A stretch of DNA of 64,000 nucleotides from the human T2T-CHM13v2.0 reference genome, Homo sapiens: assembly GCF_009914755.1 (NCBI RefSeq), contig NC_060925.1; one strand, written 5' to 3'. A program made the translations under genes and the position numbers. The notes under the pieces are model-generated. The model saw only the letters and a list, made by a program, of their open reading frames with translations, was not told the DNA's origin and ran no database searches. This document shows, in pieces, positions 20,450 to 63,559 of this stretch. Position 1 is the stretch's first letter; every line of letters starts with the position of its first letter.

Positions 20450-20544
20450 CATTTTGGTCTGCTGGTAGATTTCACCATAGGGGCCATCCCATCTCTATAG
20501 AGACTCTTGGTTTTACTGAAGTTAACAATGTTGAAAATGACCCT
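20450..20544 (-). CDS. AGBL4: Internal 95-nt coding exon of AGBL4 / cytosolic carboxypeptidase 6 (probably exon 4); phase 0 in, phase 2 out
   Basis: Minus strand: polypyrimidine cttctccctctttctttttcag|AGGGTCATT...CCAAAATG|gtaagt, canonical acceptor and consensus donor. Translation RVIFNIVNFSKTKSLYRDGMAPMVKSTSRPK(W) matches the CCP6 N-terminal region as I recall it. Not listed in the ORF track. Confidence 0.95.
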
Positions 20545-20714
20545 CTGAAAAAGAAAGAGGGAGAAGTTCATCTTTATGCTATGCAAATTGTAACTTCCTG
20601 ATAATTAAGACAGGAAATAAGAAACAGGGTTAAAGAAAGCCATATGGACTAGCAGGCAACTGTATAGTGAGAGTACACAGTGCTCATGAGAATGTAATGT
20701 GTTTGTGCCAGCTA

Positions 20715-20955
20715 AGCATAGCAATTAAGCATTAGCTCTGGAACCTGGAAACTTGAATTTTAGAACCAACTCTACTGCTTTTCAATTGTGTGGCCTTGCC
20801 AAGCTACTAAAGATCTGTTTCAGTGTCCTGATCTGAAAAATGTGAATAATAACAGTACCTACTTCACAGGACTCTGATGATAATTAAATTAATATATGTA
20901 CAGTATTTGGTACCATACTTGGTACACAATGAATGTCACATAAGTTTTAGTTATT
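20715..20955 (+). mobile_element. MIR SINE
   Basis: ttaagcattagctctgga...tgtgtggccttg..caag...tctgtttcagtgtcctgatctgaaaaatg..aataataacagtacctac. Confidence 0.65.
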
Positions 20956-22989
20956 AAGTGTATCCTTTCTCTTGGCTGACCTAGAATTTACATAGAAGTA
21001 AATCATATTATCATCAGGGTAAGAGTAGTACATTTAAAGTTCAAAAACACTAAAAATATTAACTAAGAACAAAATTGCTATTAAAACATTCTACAACTAC
21101 TTGAAACCCCTTTGACTAGAACTGAAGGATATACATCCTCTTTCGTACCCTCTTTGTTATTTTCTACTAGGGGTCGGGGTACTAGGCTCAACTATAATCT
21201 CAGCATACGTTTATAGCGCCATAAGTACTTGGGTAAATCTCTCCCCATCTCTGGGTCTTATCTTTAAAATGAGTGATTATGACATTCTAGATGCCTTTCC
21301 AAGAGGATAGTATAATTTTAAAAGCTCAGATCTTTGTTTCAGCAAACAACTTTGTTATAAGAGGGGAGGGAAGATTGTGAAAGAGAAGAGAAATATGATA
21401 AAAAGACACTTCAAACCACTGAAATAGTCCAAAGGAGAGATGATGAGAGCTACGGGTAGAGCAGCCAGAATAGCTGGAGAGAAGAAAAGATTTCAAGAGG
21501 TTACCACAGGCTAGCCTTTCTTTCCAGGGACAGTGAAAAAAACAAAACCATCAAAATTCATGTATTATTTTATTCAACAAGTATTTACTGCGTGAGGTAT
21601 TATATAGTATCAAGTGACAGTAATTGTACATACTTTTTTAAACATTGGAAATATTCTTCTATAACCATAAAAATAAATATTAACACCCTCATTTAATAAA
21701 TGTAGACACTATGGCTCAGAGAGGTTACCTAACTTGATTGAAGTCATACTAGTAGATGACAGAATTGATACTTGAATTCAGGGGATAAACAGATAAGATG
21801 TCCATGATTTTTACTCTTGAGTTAATCACTAAGATTCCAAAATTCCATAACCCTAAACAAGTCTATTTTCCAAGGGCAAAAAATAAATTTAATGGTAATT
21901 ATTCAAGTCTTTAAAATTTTGTTTTGTTAAAAAGAGAAAATCAAAAGTATATCCTCTGGCCTCATGTTTAGGACTATAATAAAATGCTTTGTTCCATGAA
22001 ATAAGCTTTTAGGGATAACTTGTGTTTTCCTTTCTCCTCAGAGACCAGCCATTTACCGCATCTCTAGGCCTTTTGGTTTCAGACCTCTCTTCTGTCATTA
22101 AATTAAGTCATCAAGAATGTCCAAGGCTGTTCCATTATTAATAACCTAGACTTGCCTTTTGTCAATTCAATTACTTCTCTCAGGGTCTTGGCTAGTATCT
22201 GATTTAAGAAAATCAATATTGAGGGGACAAATGGCCTTTGAACCTCAGAGGGCATAAGCCCCCCCTTTTTTTTCTGAGATTCCAGTTGTCAGATCCATTT
22301 CCAGTGAACCTGGAAGCCATACTGCACTTTCAGGTTCTAGATTATTGATAAATACAGAGAGAAAGCTAATAAAGCAATGATGTAAATATGTGAAGCTGGA
22401 ATAAAGAAATGAGAAATAAAGTGAAACATGCACTGATCATTAACATCCTACTGTGTGCCTAGGAAATTTCCCAGGTATTTTAAATATGCTACATTATTTG
22501 TTTACTCCATTTATAAACAAAAGTTGTTTATTTTAGCCCGATTTTAGATGTGAGGAAATTGACACTTAAACAAAGTGGCTTGCCCTCCAAAAATCCCCAA
22601 ACTATTGGTAGAGCTAGGACTTAAATCTTAGGTGTTTTGGCCATAAAGATCATACCTTCTCTATAATATTACATGGAAACAGTAACATCATTTCTTACCA
22701 TTCCCTGTTCAAGTATTTTTTATGTTTTCCAGCCATTTAGCAACATCGCTTGTGGTGGAGAGATTCAAAATTATAAGAAAGCAGACAGCGCAGGAAACCC
22801 TGAATTTCCATATTTTGTACTTAATCATTAGTTTTTACTCAAAATGAATAAGAAGATGTGGCATCCATAAGATAATGGTAACCACGAAAATAATAATAAT
22901 TTCTGAGCACACACTATGTACCATATTCTGAATTAAACACTTCATTCACATTAGAACAATGTTTTATATATTAGAATAACCTAATTGTA

Positions 22990-23060
22990 AATTAGAATCA
23001 CTAGTATAGCTTTTAAAATGACAGATGCTTGGGCCCCACCCCAGATATTCTGATATTGAT
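22990..23060. mobile_element. MER5A-like hAT MITE fragment
   Basis: attagaatcac...cttttaaaa...cagatgcttgggccccaccccagatattctgat. Confidence 0.55.
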
Positions 23061-23911
23061 GCATTATCTCATTTGTTTTGAGGATAATGAATTTTTTGAG
23101 ACAGGAACTATTTGTCACCTCTTGTTTACAGATGAGGGACTGGTAATGTGATTAAGTAAACTAAAATCATATAACTAATAAGTAGCAGAGCTAGTATTTA
23201 AACCAAGTCTGTTGCCTCAGAGGAATAAGATTATAGACTTTTTAGCCAGTTACCCTTGAGATTGAATCCCAGTTCCCTACACGTTCTGCGAGTTTAGGAA
23301 AGGTAATTATTCTTTTTTTTTTGGACATTGTTTACATCCAAAATTGAGATGGTGACAGTATCCTACCACAGTTGTTGTAAGAATCTGTAAGATTATATAA
23401 GTAAATCACCTGGCATATTGTATCTAGATCTAAACAGGTGTTCAATATTTATTGAGCGTTTCCTCTTCTCATCAATAAAGCCAGATCTTTTGGTACATTA
23501 CAATGTCTTTCCTTCTTTCTTTTTATTTTTTCTTTAGATTTAAATTTTTAACCTGAGCTTCTTGTTTCAGTAATACGGTGCTCTATATCAGAGCTCTGTA
23601 AATAGTGACCACAGTACACTGTTAGTCTAAGAGTAGGTATAACCTTCAAGGCAGTCATATGTGAGGAATGGAGTACTGCCCATCCTGACCAAGGGGCTCA
23701 TGGTGCTACTGAAAATGTGAAAGCTCCATTCCAGGTATAGGCCAAAGAGTGGTCCAATGTGGGTAAAGGTATCGTGAACAGCCTGCGTGCAGTCCTAAAG
23801 AGTGGCCTTGATTCTGTCTTGTCATATATGCAATACTTTTGTCCAATCATAAGTACATTTCCCATTTAATATTGTTCACGTTAGTTGCAGGGACTATTCT
23901 AATGGGATTAT

Positions 23912-24936
23912 AACAAGCTAAAAAAGCTTATGCACAGCAATGAAAACCACTAACAAAATGAAGAGACAACCTCCAGAATGGGAGAAAATATTTGTAGACT
24001 ATCCATCCTACAAGGGATTAATAAACAGAATATATAAGGAACTCAAACAACTCAATAGCAAACAAAAAAAATTAAAAAATGGGAAAAAGACCTGAATAGA
24101 CATTTATCAAAAAGAAGACATATAAATGGACAATAGGTATATGAAAACATTATCAACATCATTAATCATCAAAAAATGCAAATCAAAACCACAATGAGGT
24201 ATCATCTCACTGCAATTAGAATGGCTATTATCAAAAAGACAAAAAATAAAATATGTTGGTGAGGATGTAGAAAAAAAGGAACACTCATATATTGTTGGTG
24301 AGAATGGAAAGTAGTACAGGCATTATGGAATACTGTATACAAGTTCCTCAAAATACTAAAAAGAGAACTGCCATGTGATCTAGCAATCTCATCACTGGGC
24401 ATTTATCCAAAGGAAAGGAAATCAGTACATCAAAGAGGTATCTGCACTCCCATGCTTACTGCAGCATTATTCACAATAGTCAGGATATGGAATCAACCTA
24501 AGTGTGGATCAATGGATGAATGGATAAAAAATGGAATATTATTCAAAAATACATACACAATGAAATGTTATTCAAAAAACAAATTAAATCCTGTCATTTG
24601 CAGCAATGGAATGAAACTGGTGGTCACAACATTAAGTGAAACAATCCAGGCATAGAAAGATAAATATTGCATGTTTTCACTCAGATGTGGGAGCTAAAAA
24701 AGTAGATTTCATAGAGGTAGAGAATAGAATGCTGATTACCAGAGGCCAGTAAGGAAGTTGGAGGATTAAGAGAAGTTAATTAATGGGTACAAAAATACAG
24801 ATGGATAGAAGGAATAAATTTTAGTATTTGATAGTACAGTAGGAAAATTATAGTTAATGACAATTTATTATATATTTCAAAATAGGTAGAACAGAATTAT
24901 AATGTTCCCAACACAGAGAAAAGAGAAATGTTTGAG
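23912..24936 (+). mobile_element. L1MA-like 3' fragment (left part; resumes at 30874-31010)
   Basis: End of ORF2 plus L1MA 3' UTR, broken at aaatgtttgag by the younger L1. Confidence 0.8.
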
Positions 24937-24937
24937 G

Positions 24938-30873
<5,936 letters not shown>

Positions 30874-31010
30874 AAAAGATAAATGTTTGAGGTAATGTAT
30901 ATCTTAATTACCCTGATTAGATCATTATACATTCTATACATATATCAAAACATCACATATACAACCAAAAAATGTACAGTTGTAATATATCAAATAAAAA
31001 ATTATATAAA
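30874..31010 (+). mobile_element. L1MA-like 3' end (right part)
   Basis: aaatgtttgaggtaatg..atcttaattaccctgatt.gatcattatacatt...A-rich end. Confidence 0.75.
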
Positions 31011-31014
31011 ATTC

Positions 31015-31859
31015 AAAAAGGCATTTATTGATACAAAGTCAATACTTAAAAATCAATTGTATATCTATATACTAACAGTAAACAATTAGAAAATAAAATT
31101 TTATTGTGATACCAATTATGATAGTATCAAATATCAGATACCTATAAATAAATGTAATCAAAAGTGCAAGACTTCAAAACGCAAAACTATAAAACATTGT
31201 TGAGACAAATCAGGGTGTTAAGTAAATGGAAAAATCTATCATAGACATAGATCGAAGATTCATTATTAAAATCTATGTAATTCACTAAAAACCCATTGGA
31301 AGTGTCTGTGTCTATGTGTGTTTATGCATGTAAAAGTTGATAATTTAATCAGAACGTTTATATAGGAGTGCAGAAGGCCAAGAAAAGCAGCAACAGAGTT
31401 TTAGATAGCAAGACTTACTGTAATGTTATAGTAATTAAAACAATTTAGTTTACATTGCTGTGGATTTGTATAGCTAGACCGATGGATCACAACAAAGAGC
31501 CTGGGAATAGACGCAATACATATTAAAAACAATATCGTAGATCAGATGAAAATTTGAACTATAAATGAATGGTCCTGGATCAATGGGTCATCCATATGGA
31601 ACAAACCAAGCTGGGTCTCTACCTAGCACCAAATACAGAAATAAAACCCAAATAGATTAGGAAATAAAATGCACAAAGCAAAACACAGCAGATTAGTTTA
31701 TGGACTCAAAGTATGTACAGTTTTTTTTTTTACAAAAAGCACAGAAGCATTAATTATGAAGGAAAAGATAGACATATTTGAGTATTTTACAAAAAAAAAT
31801 ACTATGCAAAACGATACCACAGAAAAATGAAAATGAAAGTCAATGATTGAAAAAAAAAT
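31015..31859 (+). mobile_element. Ancient L1M ORF2 relic (host of the L1PA3; resumes at ~38051-38990)
   Basis: Degenerate ORF2 3' motifs run collinearly across the L1PA3 insertion. Confidence 0.6.
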
Positions 31860-32499
31860 AGAACCACTGCTCTCTTCAAAGCTGTCAGACAGGGACATTT
31901 AAGTCTGCAAAGGTTACTGCTGTCTTTTTGTTTGTCTGTGCCCTGCCCCCAGAGGTGGAGCCTACAGAGGCAGGCAGGCCTCCTTGAGCTGTGCTGGGCT
32001 CCACCCAGTTCGAGTTTCCTGGCTGCTTTGTTTACGTAAGCGAGCCTCAGCAATGGCGGGCGCCCCTCCCCCAGCCTCGCTGCCGCCTTGCAGTTTGCTC
32101 TCAGACTGCTGTGCTAGCAATCAGCGAGACTCCGTGAGCATAGGACTCTCCTAGCCAGGTGCGGGATATAATTCTCCTGGTGCGCCGTTTCCTAAGCCCG
32201 TCAGAAAAGCGCAGTATTCGGGTGGGAGTGACCCGATTTTCCAGGTGCTGTCACCCCTTTCCTTGACCAGGAAAGGGAACTCCCTGACCTCTTGCACGTC
32301 CCGAGTGAGGCAATGCCTCGCGCTGCTTTGGCTCATGCACGGTGCGCTGCACCCACTGTCCTGCGCCCACTGTCTGGCACTCCCCAGTGAGATGAACCCG
32401 GTACCTCAGATGGAAATGCAGAAATCACCCATCTTCTGCGTCACTCACGCTGGGAGCTGTAGACCAGAGCTGTTCCTATTCGGCCATCTTGGCTCCTCC
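31860..32499 (-). promoter_or_regulatory. Inverted CpG-rich L1 5' UTR: sense promoter on minus strand, antisense promoter on plus strand
   Basis: L1 start GGAGGAGCCAAGATGGCCG with intact YY1 motif reads on minus from 32499; many CpGs kept; plus-strand ORF0 ATG at 32053 stops early at TAG 32152-32154. Confidence 0.75.
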
Positions 32500-32633
32500 A
32501 GCACGGAGCTGGAGATCTGAGAACAGGCAGACTGCCTCCTCTAGAGGGTCCCTGACCCCTGATCCCTGAGCAGCCTAACTGGGAGGCACCCCCCAGTAGG
32601 GGCAGACTGACACCTCACACGGCTGGGTACTCC

Positions 32634-32754
32634 TCTGAGACAAAACTTCCAGAGGAACGATCAGACAGCAGCATTTGCAGTTCATGAAAATCCACGGTTC
32701 TGCAGACCCCACTGCTGATAGCCAGGCAAACAGGGTCTGGAGTGAACCTCTAGC
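32634..32754 (+). promoter_or_regulatory. L1 5' UTR segment corresponding to the ~129-bp ZNF93-binding region
   Basis: 121 nt present here and absent at the equivalent site (57979/57980) of the other young L1; identity as the ZNF93 region is from established L1PA3 biology. Confidence 0.75.
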
Positions 32755-32879
32755 AACAGACCTGCAGCTGAGGATCCTGTCTGTTGAAAGGAAAACTAAC
32801 AAACAGAAAGGACATCCACACCAAAAACCCATCTGTACATCACCATCACCAAAGACCAAAAGTACATAAAACCACAAAG

Positions 32880-33896
32880 ATGAGGAAAAAACAGAGCAGA
32901 AAAAATGGAAACTCTAAAAAGCAGAGCGCCTCTCCTCCTCCAAAGGAACGCAGTTCCTCACCAGCAACGGAACAAAGCTGGATGGAGAATGACTTTGATG
33001 AGTTGAGAGAAGAAGGCTTCAGACGATCAAACTACTCCGAGCTACAGAAGGAAATTCGAACCAAAGGCAAAGAAGTTGAAAAATTTGAAAAAAATTTAGA
33101 CGAATGTATAACTAGAATAACCAATATAGAGAAGTGCTTAAAGGAGCTGATGGAGCTGAAAGCCAAGGCTCGAGAACTACGTGAAGAATGCAGAAGCCTC
33201 AGGAGCCGATGCGATCAACTGGAAGAAAGGGTATCAGTGATGGAAGATGAAATGAATGAAATGAAGTGAGAAGGGAAGTTTAGAGAAAAAAGAATAAAAA
33301 GAAACAAACAAAGCCTCCAAGAAATATGGGACTATGTGAAAATACCAAATCTGTGTCTGATTGGTGCACCTGAAAGTGACGGGGAGAATGGAACCAAGTT
33401 GGAAAACACTCTGCAGGATATTATCCAGGAGAACTTCCCCAATCTAGCAAGGCAGGCCAACGTTCAGATTCAGGAAATACAGAGAATGCCACAAAGATAC
33501 TCCTTGAGAAGAGCAACTCCAAGACACATAATTGTCAGATTCACCAAAGTTGCAATGAAGTAAAAAATCTTAAGGGCAGCCAGAGAGAAAGGTCGGGTTA
33601 CCCACAAAGGGAAGCCCATCAGACTAAGAGCGGATCTCTCAGCAGAAACTCTACAAGCCAGAAGAGAGTGGGGGCCAATATTCAACATTCTTAAAGAAAA
33701 TAATTTTCAACCCAGAATTTCATATCCAGCCAAACTAAGATCCATAAGTGAAGGAGAAATAAAATACCTTACAGACAAGCAAATGCTGAGAGACTTTGTC
33801 ACCACCAGGCCTGCCCTAAAAGAGCTCCTGAAGGAAGCACTAAACAAGGAAAGGAGCAACCAGTACCAGCCACTGCAAAATCATGCCAAAATGTAA
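32880..33896 (+). pseudogene. L1 ORF1, full 338-codon span with premature stops
   Basis: ATG 32880 to TAA 33896 = 1017 nt; in-frame stops at 33267-33269 (CGA>TGA) and 33561-33563. Confidence 0.92.
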
Positions 33897-33935
33897 AGAC
33901 CATCGAGACTAGGAAGAAACTGCATCAACTAATGA

Positions 33936-37782
<3,847 letters not shown>

Positions 37783-39218
37783 ACAATGAGAACACATGGA
37801 CACAGGAAGGGGAACATCACACTCTGGGGACTGTTGTGGGGTGGGGGGAGTGGGGAGGGATAGCATTAGGAGATATACCTAATGCTAAATGACGAGTTAA
37901 TGGGTGCAGCACACCAGCATGGCACATGTATACATATGTAACTAACCTGCACATTGTGCACATGTACCCTAAAACTTAAAGTATAATAATAAAATTAAAT
38001 AAATAGACAATTAAATGAATATTGATGACTTTCTGAAAAACAAAAAAAGATGAAAAAATAGAGTAATCCTCACAATGGTTTAATATGCAAATTTATAAAG
38101 AACTATTATAAATCAAAATATAAAAGACCAACAATACAATAGAAAATAGGCCAAGCATATAATCAGACAAGATATAGAAGGAGGAATATAAAGGTTTGTA
38201 AATTAAATATATGAATAGATGATTACTCCACTAGCAGTTGAGGAAATATAAATTAAGAAAATAATGAAATTTCTCATCCATCATATCAGCAAAAAAGTAA
38301 ATCTAATATCAAGTATTAGCAAATCTAATATCAAGTATTGGTAATTATGAAAGAACAATGATTTTGAACATTGCTGGTAAGCATGTAAAATAGAAGAGCC
38401 TCTTTAGAGGGGTACTTGACAATAAAGATGTTTATAACCTATAACCTAGCAATTCCACTTCTATGTGTTCTCCTTAAACAAATTTTGCCCATTGTATAAG
38501 GAGACACATGCAGAGTTGTTCACTGTATCAGTATTCATTTATAATAGGAAAACAAAAAAGTAACTAAAACCGCTTAATTTAAAAAACTGGATAAATTGTG
38601 GTTCATTAGTACAAAATACTTTTGAGCATTTAAAATGAATGCATTAGAGTGACATTTATCAACATAGAGAAACTTCCAAAAACTATGTTTAATGAAAATG
38701 GCAAGCATTTTAACACAAAACAGTAGTATATTTGTATACTTATATATAATCCAAGTATAATAAAAATACAAAATTATACATGGTAATAATAATTTCAGAA
38801 ATTTGGTAACTTCTGATAGAAAGAAAGAGGTAAGGAGAGAGGATGTTAGGTATATCCGTAATGACTTATTTATCAAAATCAATAAAAGCAAGCAGGATCT
38901 GAAAGATGACAAAATGTTAATATCTGCTTCATTTTATTGAGTGCTTTTATGTTATTTTATGTATATATGAAATTTCCCTAATTTAAAATTTAAAAATTTA
39001 AATAACTTTAATTCATTTGACACTTTAGTGTAAAATATGAAGTAGAATAATGTAGTTTTTTCCAAATGGTTAGCAAGTTGTGCCAATATCATTTATTGAA
39101 TAAGTCATTCCTTTCTAATTTTAAATGCTACCATTTCCATATAATAAATTTTTATATGTTTGGGTTTATCTCTGGACTTCAATTTCTGTTCCACTGATCT
39201 GTATGTTTATCCTAATGA

Positions 39219-39533
<315 letters not shown>

Positions 39534-42038
39534 TAATTTTGATAATTGTAGTTTCATGATATTTTTCAATTTATATTATGGCAAATCTCTAGTGAATGTT
39601 TTCCTTTTAAGATTTATTTGGTTTCAATCACACTCAGTGATCTTTTCTTATCTTTTATGGTTATTTTCTTTCATAATTCATTTTGTTTATGCTTCCTCAC
39701 TATGTTTTAAAATTTTTTGTTATACAACATTTCCTTAAAATATTTTCATGTTTTTCCTTCTTTATTTAGTAATTTCCATATCATTCATCCTAGTTTTATA
39801 TTACAAATGGTTATATTTAAACTTAAAAATGAATTTGAGTCCATAACTTAGGTATGAGTAGTTTTTATTATGAATGATGTCAGTAACTCCTTTGAGACTA
39901 ACGCTTGGCACTTAACCTCCTCTGATAATACAGAAGGTTTATAACTCAGTGGGGAAAAGCTCTTTGGAGTACGTCTGACAACATGTTCTAATCATATTGC
40001 ACCATGTACAAAGGTTGGTGTGAAATGGGCAGAACTACACAGGAGTTTAGGATCAATCTGCCTTGGTGTCATGACATATCAAAGGTTATATAGATAATAT
40101 GGTATGGGGCTGAGTTGGGGATAAAACCTAGATCTCTATTTGTTCAACCAATCAGCTCCTTTACTTCGGAGCCATATTCCCAGTTTTTATATTACTTATT
40201 GGGAGTGCAGCCTGATTCCCAGCATTGTGGAAAGAAATGCTGGAGTTTCAAGCCTACTTCTTACTGTGTGATTTATCATCTTTCTGAGCCTGTTATTTGT
40301 AGGGAGAAAAATCATACCCATCTGGTAGAGTTCTTAGAATTAAATATAATTGCCCAGACAATGTGTTTAGGGAACAATAAAAGACTACATATATATGTAT
40401 ATAATGTACATATATACGTACATGAACCTATACAACTATATACATTACATACAATTTATAGATATGTTTCCTATATATGTGTAGCTTCATGTACATATAT
40501 ATGAATATGTACGTGTGTATAGACACATATGTATACATATATGTGCATGTATGTATGTAAGGATATAGAGAGACAGATCATATGTATGATTATGCTAAGT
40601 CTCCTGCCCATGAAGAACCAAAAAGTTGCCACCTAAAGTCTTCAAAAAATGCTGAACAATCCTGGGCCTCATATATCAAAAGCATGGAGTCTGGATAATC
40701 ACTATGTGAAAAACGAATCCTTATCTATTATAAGTTGATGTTGAAGAGTCACAGGGAATCAACAAAGTTTGTTAATTAGCTGCACCTGTGTCTTGTTAAC
40801 TGGAAATTGTCAATCTTCACACAGATACTGCAGTCTGACAGAGATGGTAAAAAAAAAATGGCTTGCAGATTGCACATTAGAAGATTCCTCTCCCTCACTG
40901 AAAACTTGTGAGAAGGCAGCCAAAAGAGGTAAAAGGGGAATGGAGCAAAACATTCTCATCAAGGGGAGTTTAGCATATCAAACAAGGGCATTTGTAACAT
41001 GACAGAAAGAAGAAAAAGATCTTTCAGGGAGACTCTTTCTTCTCCCTTCTCAAAATAAATATCCACCAAGATACAGACAAAAAAAAAGCCTCTCTTTTCC
41101 TCAATCTGACAGCATTTCCTACATGGAATTTTGTTCTAAATTTTAGCACTAATTCAAACATATTCATTTAATCATAATTTTAATATTTATTAAATAAACA
41201 GTTATGGGTTTCCTACTCTGCTATGTGCTGAGATTATATAAATTAATAAGACTGGGCCCTTTGCCCTTAAGTGAGGAAAATAAACCTGTAACACACACAC
41301 ACACACACACACGCGAAGGTAGAGTCTGTAGCCAGCCTAAGGGAAGAAGAGGTGAATTTTTGCTGAGGAATAAGGACTGGCCAGGCAGTAGAGAACACAT
41401 GGAAGACATTTCAGTCAGAGGGAGCAACAAGAACAAAGGCTAAGTGGTAATTCTGGGGCTGGGTAGGGCAAGAGATCAGACTGTGTCATTAAGACATATG
41501 AGCATGTTAAAAAGTTTTAACTTTCACTGAAAGCAATATGAAGGGCCTATTGAAGGGTTTTAATTGTAGGTGTGAAAGGTTCAGATTTGTGTTTCAGAAA
41601 AAGCACCTAAGGCTGCACTGAATGACTGTTCCAGGGTTTATACTGGTCTCTGTAGAGTCAGCTGAATAAGTAAATGCTCTACTCTGAGGAAACGCATACT
41701 GTTATGGAGAAAACAAGCAAGTAAACAAGTTATTGCAAACCCAGTGTCATTAATGCAAAAATAGAAGAATATGTCAAGAACTCTTGGAGCTTTGGGTATA
41801 GTGCACAGAGGACAGTGATCACATCTGCCTGAATGGGAAGAGTACACTTTCTTTTGAGCCACTTCCCAAAAGATGATGTGTAGTTCTGAGTCAAATCACT
41901 TTGAAATTAGTACCATAGTACATTTCCCCTCCTAGTTGTAGCTATGTATGGTTTGTAAGATGACTGAGATCAGGGCAAAATCCTTCACATCTTTTGTAAC
42001 TGCAAAGTAGGTACTGACAGGGCTGAAGTCAGAGTGTA

Positions 42039-42702
<664 letters not shown>

Positions 42703-43077
42703 GTGTATATTAAATAAAATCTGATTTATTAGGCTTTCTTTAAACCTATTATTTATTAAACAGGTTCTCCTTCCTGCGTGATGGGAAAGTCAAGGATAAT
42801 AAATAGAAAACCAGCCGAGTGGATGGCTTCAATACTAGGCCAACCTATAATGCACCCCATGAATGAATTTCCACCTATACTCACTTCATGTTTCCCCTGC
42901 ACAGAAGTGCTACGGAGTTAATAGGACAGATGAAATAACAGGTATATACATCTGTTTTTTTAAATGGGCTATTCATCAGGCACAGGGGAAGAAGCTATAG
43001 GTTTTCTCAGTGCTTCTGAAATTCTCAAACAGGAATGCATAGGTTTCTAAACTCAGGCAAAACCAAAATTCCTTTCC

Positions 43078-43089
43078 TTTTTTTTTTTT

Positions 43090-43140
<51 letters not shown>

Positions 43141-43283
43141 TACAAGATCTCACTCTATTGCACAGGCTGGAGTGCAATAGTGTGATCATGGCTCATGCAG
43201 CTTTGAACTCCTGGGCTCAAGTGATCCTCCTGCCTCAGACTCCCAAGTAACTGGAATTATAAGTACAAGCACAGTGCTTTGCC
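43078..43283 (-). mobile_element. FLAM (Alu monomer) with a (CA)n array grown in its tail
   Basis: Single reverse monomer 43140-43283; (CA)~22 at 43093-43137 between poly-T and body; flanking ttccttt repeat. Confidence 0.8.
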
Positions 43284-43527
43284 TTCCTTTTAAAAATTTC
43301 TTCAGTACATCCCTTGAGGGGGCCTTTCTACCTGCTGCATGATTTCTCACACTGCTACCCACTTCTGGCTTCCATTAGGTATATACTTCTATTGGCTTTT
43401 GTTATCATTTTATAATAAAATGAGGAAGGATGTGAGTCCTAGATTACCTTGCTTAATGGTGGCACAGCCTTTTCTTGATGAGACATTTAATGGTAGTCTA
43501 TTTTCTTATAAATGCATACAAATCATA

Positions 43528-44010
43528 TGTGCTAGACTGAAAATTGTTCAGAACTATTCTGCTTACTCTGTATCCATATTCTTTATACTATGATTTTGCT
43601 GCTCCTCCCATCAAAAGGTGACACCTTTGAATTTGGGCTGATCTGGTGATTGGTTTTGCCCAATAAAACCTGGTAAAACGATGGTACAGCAGCTTTAAGC
43701 CAAGACCTCAAGAAGCCTTGTGTAGTTCCATATTCTCTTTGAAATCCTACTATCAGCATTTGATCAAATCTAGGGTAGGGTGACAGTGGATGAGACTACA
43801 TTGACTAAAGCCCAATGATTCCAACTGAATCCATCTTAGACCAACATATAGACGGTTGACTTCCAAATATATGAGAGCACCCAGACAAGATCAGCAGATT
43901 AATCTACAGTTGATCACTAATACAGAAAAACCATCCGGTTGGCCCATGGACTTAACGAGCATTAATAAATGTTTCCTGTCTTAAGCCACTGGTTTTTGGT
44001 GCTTTGTTAT
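43528..44010 (+). mobile_element. MLT1 (F/G/H-like) LTR; last ~25 nt displaced to 51661-51688 by the ERV
   Basis: gctcctcccatcaa...ttgaatttgggctg; aataaatg...ttaagccact...tttgttat | ttagcaatagc. Confidence 0.7.
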
Positions 44011-56936: not shown

Positions 56937-57433
56937 GGAAGAATGAACTGCAGGTCTGCTTTTGTGTTGCTCTAAAGTCCATGCTTTTTTGTTTTACACT
57001 ATGATAACTCAAATGAAGAGATTTTGTCATTTCTCTTCAATGAGGCTCTTTGTCTCAAAAAAAGGAGTAGGGGTATGGTACTATTCAAAAGACACTACAG
57101 AGATGGTTAGATGATGGGTAGGTGGACTGATTATACTATGTAAAACAACTTAAAATGCTCTTAAAACAATGGAGAACTAACAAAATATTAAGAAAGTAGG
57201 GGGAGGACCCAAGATGGCCGAATAGGAACAGCTCCGGTCTACAGCTCCCAGCGTGAGCGACGCAGAAGACAGGTGATTTCTGCATTTCCATCTGAGGTAT
57301 CGGGTTCATCTCACTAGGGAGTGCCAGACAGTGGGCGCAGGTCAGTAGGTGCTCGCACCGTGCGCGAGCCAAAGCAGGGCGAGGCATTGCCTCACTTGGG
57401 AAGCGCAAGGGGTCAGGGAGTTCCCTTTACGAG

Positions 57434-57649
57434 TCAAAGAAAGGGGTGACAGACGCACCTGGAAAATCGGGTCACTCCCACCCGAATATTGCGCTTTTCG
57501 GACGGGCTTAAAAAACGGCGCACCAAGAGATTATATCCCGCACCTGGCTTGGAGGGTCCTAGGCCCATGGAGTCTCGCTGACTGCTAGCACAGCAGTCTG
57601 AGATCCAACTGCAAGGCGGCAGCGAGGCTGGGGGAGGGGCGCCCGCCAT
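57434..57649 (-). CDS. Intact L1 ORF0 (71 aa) downstream of the antisense promoter
   Basis: MAGAPPPASLPPCS...RFSRCVCHPFL*, 216 nt, the C-terminal part of ORF-track 57434-57718; both ORF0 donors CAG|GTGCG intact; expression not shown. Confidence 0.7.
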   Translation of the reverse strand: MAGAPPPASLPPCSWISDCCASSQRDSMGLGPSKPGAGYNLLVRRFLSPSEKRNIRVGVTRFSRCVCHPFL

Positions 57650-58104
57650 TGCCCAGGCTTGCTTAGGTAAACAAACCAGCTGGGAAGCTGGAACTGGGTG
57701 GTGCCCACCACAGCTCAAGAAGGCCTGCCTGCCTCTGTAGGCTCCACCTCTGGGGGCAGGGCACAGACAAACAAAAAGACAGCACTAACCTCTGCAGACT
57801 TAAATGTCCCTGTCTGACAGCTTTGAAGAGAGCAGTGGTTCTCCCAGCACGCAGCTGGAGATCTGAGAACGGGCAGACTGCCTCCTCAAGTGGGTCCCTG
57901 ACCCCTGACCCCCGAGCAGCCTAACTGGGAGGCACCCCCAAGCAGGGGCACACTGACACCTCACACGGCAGGGTATTCCAACAGACTCGCAGCTGAGGGT
58001 CCTATCTGTTAGAAGGAAAACTAACAAACAGAAAGGACATCCACACCAAAAACCCATCTGTACATCACCATCATCAAAGACCAAAAGTAGATAAAACTGC
58101 AAAG

Positions 58105-59122
58105 ATGGGGAAAAAACAGAACAGAAAAACGAAACTCTAAAACGCAGAGCGTCTCTCCTCCTCCAAAGGAACGCAGTTCCTCACCAGCAACGGAACAAAG
58201 CTGGATGGAGAATGACTTTGACGAGCTGAGAGAGGAAGGCTTCAGACGATCAAATTACTCTGAGCTACAGAAGGAAATTCAAACCAAAGGCAAATAAGTT
58301 GAAAACTTTGAAAAAAATTTAGAAGAATGTATAACTAGAATAACCAATACAGAGAAGTGCTTAAAGGAGCTGATGGAGCTGAAAACCAAGGCTCAAGAAC
58401 TACGTGAAGAATGCAGAAGCCTCAGGAGCCGATGCGATCAACTGGAAGAAAGGGTATCAGCAATGGAAGATGAAATGAATGAAATGAAGCGAGAAGGGAA
58501 GTTTAGAGAAAAAAGAATAAAAAGAAATGAGCAAAGCCTCCAAGAAATATGGGACTATGTGAAAAGACCAAATCTACGTCTGATTGGTGTACCTGAAAGT
58601 GACGGGGAGAATGGAACCAAGTTGGAAAACACTCTGCAGGATATTATCCAGGAGAACTTCCCCAATCTAGCAAGGCAGGCCAACGTTCAGATTCAGGAAA
58701 TACAGAGAATGCCACAAAGATACTCCTCGAGAAGAGCAACTCCAAGACACATAATTGTCAGATTCACCAAAGTTGAAATGAAGGAAAAAATGTTAAGGGA
58801 AGCCAGAGAGAAAGGTCGGGTTACCCTCAAAGGGAAGCCCATCAGACTAACAGCAGCGGATCTCTCGGCAGAAACCCTACAAGCCAGAAGAGAGTGGGGG
58901 CCAATATTCAACATTCTTAAAGAAAATAATTTTCAATCCAGAATTTCATATCCAGCCAAACTAAGCTTCATAAGTGAAGGAGAAATAAAATACTTTACAG
59001 ACAAGCAAATGCTGAGAGATTTTGTCACCACCAGGCCTTCCCTAAAAGAGCTCCTGAAGGAAGCGCTAAACAGGGAAAGGAACAACCGGTACCAGCCACT
59101 GCAAAATCATGCCAAAATGTAA
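58105..59122 (+). pseudogene. L1 ORF1, disrupted near the N-terminus
   Basis: ATG 58105; small deletion at ~58130; TAA at ~58295; residual 249-aa ORF 58373-59122 with a 3-nt insertion (LTAADL). Confidence 0.9.
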
Positions 59123-59185
59123 AGACCATCGAGACTAGGAAGAAACTGCATCAACTAACGAGCAAAATCACCAGCTAACTTCATA

Positions 59186-62850
<3,665 letters not shown>

Positions 62851-63559
62851 ACAATGAGATCACATGGACACAGGAAGGGGAATATCACACTCTGGGGACT
62901 GTGGTGGGGTGGGGGGAGGGGGGAGGGATAGCATTGGGAGATATACCTAATGCTTGATGACGAGTTAGTGGGTGCAGCACACCAGCATGGCACATGTATA
63001 CATATGTAACTAACCTGCACAATGTGCACATGTACCCTAAAATTTAAAGTATAATAAAAAAAAAAAAGAAAGAAAGTACCAGGCCAAAATTTAAGTTAAT
63101 TCTAGATCCAACAGAGAGCATTTGCTGAATCTGGTGAATCTAAGCTTGGCAAAATAGGGATTGGTTTTCAGGGATGTCAAGGCCATTGCGAATTTTAAAA
63201 ATCATAGAAAAGTGAGACCAAAATTCTGTGCAATTTTCCTTCAATTCACTTGCAAAATTCTAAGCTGCTCATATACATGGTGAAATGCTAATAAAACAAG
63301 TAGAAAGTGGTACCTATGAGGTTAAAATGCTAAGTGGAGCTTTCAACAGTCTCAAAGTGCTGCAGAAAGACAGTTTGGAGTTCAAGGCCTACCAAGTTGG
63401 AAAATTGTGGTAAATACCCAATACTGTTTGAGATGCCAAGGGACTGTGCACTTGAGATGAAGGGCTATGCCCTTGGAGTAAGGGCAAGCCAAACATATAC
63501 CTGAATTGATATATTTGAAATTCAACCTCGACTGGATAAACATGATCTTCTCAAATGCT

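What the first reader, a model, noticed from the sequence alone, without database searches (positions are those of the whole stretch)
20450..32499. Flipped L1 sense promoter and 5' UTR splice donor aim at the AGBL4 exon: candidate internal promoter
Seen: the L1 start with intact YY1 motif reads on the minus strand, the AGBL4 strand. 95 nt later there is an intact donor CTGAG|GTACCG (32405|32404), ~11.9 kb upstream of the acceptor at 20544. Known: this donor near L1 nt 97 is used in spliced L1 5' UTR transcripts. Inference: an L1(1-95)-AGBL4 chimeric mRNA could form. It could start CCP6 at the in-frame GGG-ATG-G (20487), lacking most of the N-terminal domain. Caveats: two short uORFs in the L1 part, a strong out-of-frame ATG 5 nt upstream, and the truncated protein may not fold.
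Basis: inference. Interest (0 to 1): 0.7.

Follow-up and report, generated by a model that had tools for sequence, protein, structure and literature searches.

The report
Flipped LINE-1 promoter inside AGBL4 intron
An old, dead LINE-1 element sits in an AGBL4 intron with its front end flipped, so its two built-in promoters point the opposite ways from usual; one coincides with the start of a catalogued non-coding RNA, while the proposed new start for AGBL4 itself is possible but untested and probably weak.

Summary
The cause is a 5'-inverted (twin-primed) full-length L1. L1 nt 1-640 lies flipped at 32499->31860 and the body (nt ~641 to the end) runs on the plus strand to about 38063. ORF1 and ORF2 are broken, and the body carries the extra "129-bp" ZNF93 element, so it is L1PA3-like. 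The flipped piece holds both L1 promoters. The annotated AGBL4-AS1 starts at flipped-L1 position 408 on the antisense strand, which is the known antisense-promoter site. The sense promoter faces the AGBL4 exon 11.9 kb away, whose acceptor is the best of 694 AGs. However, the donor is weak, its usual partner acceptor (SA622) is retained, and poly(A) signals lie 1.15-1.5 kb from the start. CpG retention is average, and translation would be blocked by a 6-codon overlapping uORF. I found no transcript evidence in print, and RNA data cannot be tested here. Verdict: a real, neat but ordinary L1 architecture; the L1-AGBL4 chimera remains an unproven, low-odds prediction.

The parts
31860..32499 (-). 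Flipped L1 5'UTR piece (L1 nt 1-640). It carries both the sense promoter and the antisense promoter.
   Evidence: Reads as an L1 5' end on the minus strand. It aligns over its full length to uninverted relatives at 91-94% identity.
32481..32491 (-). YY1 core CAAGATGGCCG (flipped-L1 positions 9-19)
   Evidence: The YY1 site is placed at nt 13-21 of L1HS in PMC4908685 section 7. The core is kept in 22 of 29 relatives.
32399..32407 (-). Donor GAG|GTACCG, equivalent to L1.3 G98U99 (last exon base 32405)
   Evidence: It is invariant in 5 of 5 aligned copies and kept in 21 of 29 relatives. Rough matrix score -1.0, rank 108 of 725 GTs.
31881..31902 (-). Retained intra-L1 acceptor equivalent to A620G621 (SA622): CTGTCTGACAG|CTTTGAAG, first exon base 31881
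   Evidence: score -0.27, rank 153 of 694. This is the partner of the donor in 116 genomic SpIRE97/622 copies (PMC5860796).
32495..32498 (.). Inversion junction with CTCC microhomology between the complement of the L1 5' end and the start of the body
   Evidence: Only 1 of 40 scored genomic places spans the junction, and that place is the window's own.
32499..38063 (+). L1 body (L1 nt ~641 to the 3' end plus a decayed A-rich tail). ORF1 is cut to 129 aa (32880-33269). ORF2 is split into 33960-36980 and 36958-37782.
32633..32753 (+). Extra ~121 nt that are absent from the second L1 of the window. This is the '129-bp' L1PA3/4 element that holds the ZNF93 site; it contains TCCAGAG.
   Evidence: alignment; PMC5860796 section 16
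32092..32158 (+). AGBL4-AS1 exon 1. It covers flipped-L1 positions 408->342 on the antisense strand, which is the L1 antisense-promoter start. Its donor is CCAG|GTGCGG.
   Evidence: Hub annotation. The primary antisense promoter lies at about nt 400 (PMC4908685 section 7). The 5' end is not preceded by AG.
20450..20544 (-). AGBL4 coding exon (95 nt, phase 0). It encodes part of the cytosolic-carboxypeptidase N-domain.
   Evidence: Acceptor rank 1 of 694 and donor rank 1 of 725. BLASTP to a paralogue ORF gives E 3e-07, inside that ORF's PF18027 match.
20485..20494 (-). Out-of-frame ATG (20492, MGWPLW*) followed 5 nt later by the in-frame ATG (20487)
31024..31105 (-). Two AATAAA signals with T-rich downstream sequence, 1394 and 1470 nt from the flipped start. 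An ATTAAA also lies at 31349.
31845..31861 (.). Candidate left target-site duplication GATTGAAAAAAAAATAG. The right copy, GATGAAAAAATAG, is at 38049-38062.
   Evidence: The sequence is low-complexity, and a local alignment of the flanks did not exceed shuffles, so this is tentative.

Best explanation
The feature is one LINE-1 insertion of about 6.2 kb, L1PA3-like and coding-dead. It lies on the plus strand of a roughly 451-kb AGBL4 intron and was built by twin priming, so that L1 nt 1-640 is inverted relative to the body.

That piece contains essentially the whole bidirectional L1 promoter, so the inversion swaps what the two promoters face.
- The antisense promoter now reads along the plus strand, into the L1's own body. 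It coincides with the annotated start of the lncRNA AGBL4-AS1, which splices from the L1 antisense donor at 32158 over the whole L1 body to 40825.
- The sense promoter, with its G98U99 donor, now reads along the AGBL4 strand.

Shown: the structure, the intact motifs, and the coincidence of the annotated lncRNA start with the antisense-promoter position.

Inferred: when the sense promoter fires at all (germline, early embryo or demethylated cells), most RNA is probably one of three things. It may be unspliced read-through ending at the poly(A) signals 1.15-1.5 kb downstream. It may be spliced internally 97/622-style. Or it may be captured by cryptic acceptors in the old antisense L1 debris. Only a minor fraction would be joined to the AGBL4 exon.

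Such a chimera would behave as a non-coding or decay-prone RNA rather than as a source of N-truncated CCP6.
For: Structure.
- In 4 of 4 uninverted relatives the two window pieces map to abutting coordinates, from a 5-nt overlap to a 1-nt gap between the mapped ends.
- In 29 of 29 further relatives the body follows the 5' piece on the same strand. 24 meet my strict contiguity test. The other 5 start later only because their first body match begins later (at body position 52 or 256); four of them show no match before position 256, and all 5 were classed as lacking the ~121-nt element.
- Only 1 of 40 scored places spans the junction, and that is the window's own.
- There is CTCC microhomology at the junction. 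Microhomology is typical of 5'-inverted L1s (PMC2912911).

Age and death.
- ORF1 is cut to 129 aa and ORF2 is split into 1006 + 274 aa.
- The body carries the ZNF93-bearing element.
- Identity to the nearest copies is 92-94%.

Antisense promoter.
- AGBL4-AS1 exon 1 covers flipped-L1 positions 408->342.
- All three of its introns are GT-AG, and its 5' end is not an acceptor.
- The primary antisense promoter lies at about nt 400 in L1HS-L1PA8.

Low yield of the sense chimera.
- The donor scores -1.0 against 2.0-6.5 for the 4 annotated donors of the window.
- SA622 is retained.
- There are 7 AATAAA and 4 ATTAAA signals in the path, the first three at 1150, 1394 and 1470 nt from the start.
- Cryptic acceptors score 9.4-11.8 at 29911, 28379, 27123 and 22395.
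- The piece has 27 CpGs, against 23.5 +/- 3.4 in 17 same-form relatives, 3 of which have 27 or more.
- Most unmethylated L1s stay silent (preprint 10.1101/2023.01.03.522582).
- L1-cellular hybrid transcripts are low-level (PMC2896524).

Translation: the uORFs and the overlapping 6-codon ORF.
Against: No RNA, CAGE or methylation data could be consulted, so 'low yield' is inference only.

- The AGBL4 acceptor is by far the strongest in the 11.9-kb path: rank 1 of 694, score 13.1.
- G98U99 is a proven donor despite its poor consensus.
- The flipped piece keeps the region between nt 98 and 621, in which Larson et al. place five known transcription-factor sites. Only the YY1 core and the donor-embedded RUNX3 core were checked for intactness here.
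- The sense promoter is co-oriented with the host gene, the arrangement that PMC9396940 associates with promoter activity inside transcribed genes.
- An annotated transcript start lies in the same 640-nt piece.

Other limits:
- My splice matrices use recalled frequencies, not MaxEntScan.
- The target-site duplication is not statistically distinguishable.
- The subfamily label rests on one indel and on identity levels, not on RepeatMasker.
Confidence: 0.7

Rival explanations
1. The flipped sense promoter is a working internal AGBL4 promoter. Transcripts start at about 32499, splice from 32405 to 20544 and continue through the downstream AGBL4 exons. They are translated from ATG 20487 into an N-truncated CCP6.
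For: All cis elements are present and co-oriented. The acceptor is rank 1 of 694. The donor is experimentally validated in L1 RNAs. The annotated AGBL4-AS1 start falls in the same piece. Host-gene co-orientation is favourable.
Against: - None of my searches found a report: AGBL4-AS1, 0 papers; AGBL4 + LINE-1 + chimeric transcript, 0; AGBL4 + L1PA, 0. AGBL4 + LINE-1 gave 8 papers, none on this by title, and I opened only one of them.
- The donor is weak, SA622 competes, and poly(A) signals lie early in the path.
- The ZNF93 element is adjacent.
- There are two uORFs in the leader, and the 20492 ATG (G at -3, G at +4) opens an ORF covering both in-frame ATGs.
- The product would lose about the first half of the PF18027 N-domain.
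- From general knowledge of M14D carboxypeptidases (recalled), that domain packs against the catalytic domain.
Confidence: 0.1
2. The flipped piece is transcriptionally inert, and the AGBL4-AS1 5' end is a truncated cDNA or an exonised L1 fragment of a longer plus-strand transcript. In that case neither L1 promoter works here.
For: RefSeq 5' ends are often incomplete (general knowledge). Criscione's EST screen lists only AGBL4-IT1/L1MDa for this gene region, not AGBL4-AS1. CpG retention is average.
Against: The annotated 5' end falls at flipped-L1 position 408, where the primary antisense-promoter start is described. It is not preceded by an AG acceptor. It also uses the L1 antisense donor; two antisense donor sites are noted in PMC9396940.
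Confidence: 0.15
3. The arrangement is not twin priming. It arose from two independent L1 insertions, or from a later local inversion.
For: The target-site duplication could not be shown above chance.
Against: - A free-standing L1 nt 1-640 piece lacks a 3' end and poly(A) tail, so ordinary retrotransposition would not make it (established mechanism; PMC2912911 background).
- The two pieces meet at the same L1 coordinate, within a few nt, in 4 of 4 relatives.
- Both pieces have similar identity to relatives: 91-94% and 92-94%.
- The junction shows microhomology.
Confidence: 0.03

Closest known systems
5'-inverted L1 insertions made by twin priming (Ostertag and Kazazian model, as summarised in Kojima 2010, PMC2912911)
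   Same: Two L1 segments lie in opposite orientation and are contiguous in L1 coordinates. There is microhomology at the junction, an A-rich 3' end and an A-rich target. Such inversions make up about 10-30% of L1 insertions.
   Different: The inverted segment here reaches the very 5' end of the L1 RNA and spans almost the entire internal promoter. The element is therefore full-length with a clean 640-nt flip. How common that subclass is could not be counted here.
L1 antisense-promoter chimeric transcripts (LCTs; Criscione 2016, PMC4908685; Pinson 2022, PMC9396940)
   Same: AGBL4-AS1 begins at about nt 408 on the antisense strand of a young-primate L1 5'UTR. It splices from an L1 antisense donor to non-L1 exons.
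   Different: Because of the flip, the antisense promoter reads into the L1's own body instead of into upstream flank, and its first intron contains the whole L1 body. It is also antisense to the host gene, the minority class (8% of intragenic LCT-producing L1s).
Spliced L1 RNAs and SpIREs that use the G98U99 donor (Belancio 2006, not held; Larson 2018, PMC5860796)
   Same: The same donor, embedded in the RUNX3 site, is intact here. Its most frequent genomic partner acceptor A620G621 is also present.
   Different: This copy is not a SpIRE, because the sequence between nt 98 and 621 is present. The downstream acceptors 853 and 917 of L1PA3 lie on the other strand because of the flip. Beyond SA622, the donor therefore faces host intron and the AGBL4 exon.

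Membership tests
5'-inverted (twin-primed) L1 insertion | Two L1 segments in opposite orientation whose L1 coordinates abut or nearly abut | tested here: met
   4 of 4 relatives: the pieces map to adjoining coordinates, from a 5-nt overlap to a 1-nt gap between the mapped ends. 29 of 29 further relatives are uninverted.
5'-inverted (twin-primed) L1 insertion | Microhomology at the inversion junction | tested here: met
   CTCC is shared by the complement of the L1 5' end and the start of the body.
5'-inverted (twin-primed) L1 insertion | Poly(A) tail and target-site duplication flanking the whole unit | tested here: inconclusive
   There is a decayed A-rich tail. The candidate 13-17-nt duplication differs by indels in an A run. 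The local alignment of the flanks scored 21, against 23.7 +/- 3.6 for shuffles.
L1 antisense-promoter chimeric transcript (applied to AGBL4-AS1) | Transcript 5' end on the antisense strand within the first ~600 nt of a young L1 5'UTR | tested here: met
   The annotated exon 1 covers flipped-L1 positions 408->342, and the primary antisense promoter lies at about nt 400. This rests on the RefSeq annotation, not on cap data.
L1 antisense-promoter chimeric transcript (applied to AGBL4-AS1) | Spliced from an L1 antisense donor to exons outside the L1 | tested here: met
   The donor is CCAG|GTGCGG at 32158|32159. Exons 2-4 lie at 40825-43982, beyond the L1 end. All introns are GT-AG.
   No expression data are available here. 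Literature searches found nothing.
SpIRE (spliced integrated retrotransposed element) | Genomic copy lacking the interval between nt 98 and an L1 acceptor (622, 790, 853 or 976) | tested here: not met
   The flipped piece aligns continuously across nt 98-621 with 4 relatives.
Cytosolic carboxypeptidase N-domain (PF18027), for the exon | Significant match to the family profile | tested here: inconclusive
   The 31-aa exon alone gives no Pfam hit. It matches CCP5 chains at E 0.067. It aligns at E 3e-07 to a paralogue ORF, within that ORF's PF18027 match (31.4 bits, cut-off 23.2).

The most novel reading that the evidence does not exclude
A twin-priming flip of the whole L1 promoter has rewired both L1 promoters at once. 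The antisense promoter drives AGBL4-AS1 through the L1's own body. In hypomethylated or AGBL4-expressing cells the sense promoter acts as a cryptic internal AGBL4 promoter. Its G98U99 donor, deprived of its usual downstream L1 acceptors, is captured by the strong AGBL4 acceptor and yields an L1-AGBL4 transcript. If so, full-length 5'-inverted L1s would be a distinct, overlooked class of sense-promoter-driven gene chimeras.
Probability: 0.12. Interest if true: 0.55.

Novelty: new member of a known kind. Interest (0 to 1): 0.3.

Why it matters
L1-derived alternative promoters described so far are almost all antisense-promoter events. Here the sense promoter is turned toward host exons by twin priming, which would be a mechanistically different route to gene chimeras and one easy to search for genome-wide. 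For this locus the practical value is modest. The analysis explains where AGBL4-AS1 appears to come from (an L1 antisense promoter on a flipped 5'UTR). It also flags a precise junction (window 32405->20544; CHM13 chr1:49,136,405->49,124,544, minus strand) that can be looked up in RNA data. A truncated CCP6 tubulin deglutamylase is unlikely to result.

Tried and rejected
- **Pfam on the exon:** the 31-aa exon alone returned nothing. I therefore located the exon through a paralogue ORF instead.
- **Target-site duplication:** the local alignment of the flanks did not exceed shuffles (244 of 300 shuffles reached the observed score). The duplication is reported only as a candidate.
- **CpG retention as a proxy for long-term germline hypomethylation:** the copy is not an outlier. 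It has 27 CpGs. The 29 relatives average 26.5 +/- 4.6, and 14 of them have 27 or more. The 17 same-form relatives average 23.5 +/- 3.4, and 3 of them have 27 or more.
- **SpIRE:** rejected, because the nt 98-621 interval is present.
- **Two independent insertions or a later inversion:** judged unlikely (see the rival explanations).
- **Pinson 2022 table:** it lists an AGBL4 chimera, but by my coordinate-offset estimate it belongs to the other full-length L1 of the window (57202-63062). It has 1 read in one of 8 gliomas.
- **Criscione 2016 Table S1:** it lists only AGBL4-IT1/L1MDa.
- **PMC11602805:** it names AGBL4 among brain genes with TE-derived regulatory sequence but gives no element, and its supplement could not be read.
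- **Papers not held:** Belancio 2006, Belancio 2008 and Speek 2001. What they say is taken second-hand from Larson 2018, Belancio 2010 and Criscione 2016.
- **Census not attempted:** a genome-wide count of full-length 5'-inverted L1s was not made, because the genome search scores only 40 candidates per query.


Full report
**1. Observation**

- An L1 5' end (GGAGGAGCCAAGATGGCCG...) begins at 32499, with the YY1 core at 32491-32481.
- After 95 nt comes TCTGAG|GTACCG, with the last exon base at 32405.
- The AGBL4 exon (20544-20450) is preceded by CTTCTCCCTCTTTCTTTTTCAG and followed by GTAAGT. The hypothetical intron is 11,860 nt.
- The exon reads in frame 0 as RVIFNIVNFSKTKSLYRDGMAPMVKSTSRPK.
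- In a 32499-32405 + 20544-20450 RNA the ATGs are, in order:
  - 32487 (MAE*);
  - 32432 (MGDFCISI*, stop one base before the donor);
  - 20492 (out of frame, MGWPLW*);
  - 20487 (in frame);
  - 20478 (in frame).

The L1 identity is not a chance resemblance. The first 200 nt match other copies of the same genome at E about 1e-84 to 1e-97. The 640-nt piece matches 39 other scored places at 92-94% identity.

**2. What the structure is**

The plus strand from 32499 onward is the rest of the same L1 in the opposite orientation.

- BLAST against four uninverted genomic relatives maps window 31860-32499 (reverse) to their L1 positions 1 to about 640. It maps window 32492/32498-33548 (forward) to the positions that follow immediately. 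The ends of the two mapped pieces range from a 5-nt overlap to a 1-nt gap in 4 of 4 relatives.
- In 29 further relatives the body follows the 5' piece on the same strand in 29 of 29. Of these, 24 pass my strict contiguity test. The other 5 fail it only because their first body match begins later (at body position 52 or 256); four of them show no match before position 256, and all 5 were classed as lacking the ~121-nt element.
- A 141-nt query across the junction finds only the window's own place spanning it (1 of 40 scored). The other 39 stop at the L1 5' end.
- The junction shows CTCC, which could come from either segment.
- The left flank is A-rich (GATTGAAAAAAAAATAG). A similar string (GATGAAAAAATAG) follows the decayed A-rich tail at 38049-38062. 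This candidate target-site duplication is low-complexity and did not beat shuffled controls.

This is the textbook product of twin priming. About 10-30% of L1 insertions are 5'-inverted, and microhomologies at their junctions are the rule (PMC2912911, passages read). What is particular here is that the inverted segment runs to the very 5' end of the L1 RNA. The element is therefore full-length, with a clean flip of nt 1-640.

**3. Age and state**

- ORF1 is cut to 129 codons (32880-33269), and ORF2 is split into 1006 and 274 codons.
- The body carries about 121 extra nt (32633-32753) relative to the second full-length L1 of the window. These include the TCCAGAG motif.
- This corresponds to the '129-bp' sequence that contains the ZNF93 binding site and was lost between L1PA3 and L1PA2/L1PA1 (PMC5860796, section 16 read).
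- Of the 29 nearest relatives, 17 carry this element and 12 lack it.

I therefore call the element L1PA3-like. That label is an inference, because no RepeatMasker or Dfam call was available. Because of the flip, the ZNF93 element sits only 134-254 bp from the flipped start site, on its upstream side.

**4. The two promoters**

The flipped 640 nt include the start site, the YY1 core and the RUNX3-embedded donor. They also include the interval nt 98-621, in which Larson et al. place five known transcription-factor sites.

*Antisense promoter.* The hub annotation places AGBL4-AS1 exon 1 at 32092-32158 (+).

- In flipped-L1 coordinates this is 408->342 on the antisense strand.
- Criscione et al. 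locate the primary L1 antisense promoter at about nt 400 for L1HS and L1PA2-8 (PMC4908685, section 7 read).
- The exon's 5' end is not preceded by AG. Its donor is CCAG|GTGCGG, and all three introns are GT-AG.
- Pinson et al. note two donor sites on the antisense L1 5'UTR.

AGBL4-AS1 is therefore best read as an L1 antisense-promoter transcript. Because of the flip, its first intron (32159-40824) contains the L1's own body. An ORF0-like ATG at 32053 lies upstream of the annotated start. Its frame closes after 33 codons, just before the donor.

**5. Would the sense promoter feed the AGBL4 exon?**

*For:*
- On a rough log-odds matrix the AGBL4 acceptor is the best of 694 AGs between 32499 and 20300 (score 13.1). 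The matrix uses frequencies recalled from memory, not MaxEntScan.
- G98U99 is a proven donor. It was used in 131 genomic SpIREs and in transfected constructs.
- The L1PA3 acceptors at 853 and 917 are now on the other strand.
- The promoter is co-oriented with the host gene. Pinson et al. link that orientation to activity of intragenic L1 promoters.

*Against:*
- The donor scores -1.0 (rank 108 of 725 GTs). That is below the four annotated donors of the window, which score 2.0-6.5.
- The A620G621 acceptor is retained at 31881, though it too scores weakly (-0.27, rank 153 of 694). It is the donor's partner in 116 of the 131 SpIREs, 53 of them L1PA3.
- ATTAAA at 31349 and AATAAA at 31105 and 31029 lie 1150, 1394 and 1470 nt from the start. 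T-rich sequence follows the two AATAAA.
- Four cryptic acceptors score 9.4-11.8 in old plus-strand L1 debris (27034-30680). One of them (27123) has a usable donor 224 nt downstream.
- Belancio et al. describe L1-cellular hybrid transcripts as low-level (PMC2896524, passage).
- Lanciano et al. find that most unmethylated L1s remain silent (preprint, passages).
[quoted passage not shown] An AGBL4-AS1 start in this piece therefore does not show that the sense promoter is active.
- CpG retention, a weak proxy for long-term germline hypomethylation, is average. The piece has 27 CpGs, against 23.5 +/- 3.4 in 17 same-form relatives (3 of 17 have 27 or more) and 26.5 +/- 4.6 in all 29.
- Having the donor, YY1 core and SA622 context intact is common among relatives: 21, 22 and 22 of 29.

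**6. Coding potential**

The 31-aa exon alone gives no Pfam hit, so I placed it in three other ways.

- It matches CCP5 chains (8v3m and others) at residues 90-113 with E 0.067.
- It matches a paralogous AGBL ORF elsewhere in the genome at E 3e-07 (14 of 28 identical). The match falls inside that ORF's PF18027 hit: residues 36-144, profile positions 18-105 of 107.
- The preceding AGBL4 coding exon lies about 451 kb upstream (G000:C1:49575979-49576110). It matches PF18027 positions 8-50 at E 2.5, below the cut-off. That it is the immediately preceding exon was judged by eye, from the equal spacing with the paralogue.

The in-frame Met therefore falls near the middle of the N-domain profile. A product starting there would lack about the first half of that domain, plus everything N-terminal to it.

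Translation is further handicapped. There are two uORFs in the L1 leader. The 20492 ATG (G at -3, G at +4) opens a 6-codon ORF that overlaps both in-frame ATGs. From general knowledge, termination that far upstream of many exon junctions would make the RNA a candidate for nonsense-mediated decay (inference).

**7. Literature**

| Search | Result |
|---|---|
| AGBL4-AS1 | 0 papers |
| AGBL4 + LINE-1 + chimeric transcript | 0 papers |
| AGBL4 + L1PA | 0 papers |
| AGBL4 + LINE-1 | 8 papers, none on this by title; I opened one |
| twin priming / inverted / L1 promoter / sense promoter | 26 papers hold at least 3 terms; 15 listed, none about flipped promoters driving host genes by title |

- The one AGBL4 + LINE-1 paper I opened, PMC11602805, only lists AGBL4 among brain genes with TE-derived regulatory sequence. 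Its supplement was unreadable.
- Criscione's Table S1 has only AGBL4-IT1/L1MDa.
- Pinson's table has one AGBL4 chimera with 1 read. By my coordinate-offset estimate it belongs to the other L1, at 57202-63062.
- These searches cover only the held library. Supplements of other L1 transcript atlases were not seen and may list this locus.

**8. Verdict**

The thing is an ordinary kind of object: a twin-primed, dead, L1PA3-like L1. It has a tidy consequence, because both L1 promoters are re-aimed. The antisense promoter coincides with the annotated start of AGBL4-AS1.

I put the chance that the junction is detectable in some public data set at about 0.12-0.15. I put the chance of a functional truncated CCP6 at about 0.02. 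Interest is modest (0.3). It would rise if junction or CAGE data showed use, or if a genome-wide census showed that full-length 5'-inverted L1s are a recurrent source of sense-promoter gene chimeras.

Noticed in passing
window 57202-63062 (+): A second full-length L1, uninverted and lacking the ~121-nt ZNF93 element, with ORFs broken into 249, 397 and 681 aa. Its antisense promoter faces the AGBL4 strand in the conventional arrangement. It is probably the L1PA2 that Pinson 2022 lists with an AGBL4 chimera (1 read in one glioma); that match rests on my coordinate-offset estimate. Its G98U99-equivalent donor reads GAG|GTATCG.
   Followed up: partly
window 32053-32158 (+): An ORF0-like frame starts at ATG 32053, upstream of the annotated AGBL4-AS1 start. 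It closes after 33 codons, just before the antisense donor, so no ORF0 fusion protein is expected from this copy.
   Followed up: partly
window 32159-40824 (+): Intron 1 of AGBL4-AS1 contains the entire L1 body in sense orientation. Because of the flip, the L1 antisense promoter transcribes the L1's own (broken) ORF1 and ORF2.
   Followed up: no
window 32289 (-): A copy-specific change turns the sequence at flipped-L1 position ~211 into GAG|GTCAGG; the four aligned relatives read GGG|GTCAGG. It scores 2.36 on the rough donor matrix (rank 12 of 725), higher than the G98U99 donor.
   Followed up: no
window 27034-30680 and 23901-24414 (+); 25112-25418: Old L1 fragments (72-81% identical to the young L1) lie antisense to AGBL4 and hold most of the strong cryptic acceptors. 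One Alu lies with its poly(A) end on the left, so it is in sense orientation on the AGBL4 strand.
   Followed up: partly
G000:C1:49575979-49576110 (-), about 451 kb from the window exon: This appears to be the preceding AGBL4 coding exon (...WFNFTVENVKESQ). The flipped L1 therefore lies near the 3' end of a very long intron of about 451 kb.
   Followed up: partly
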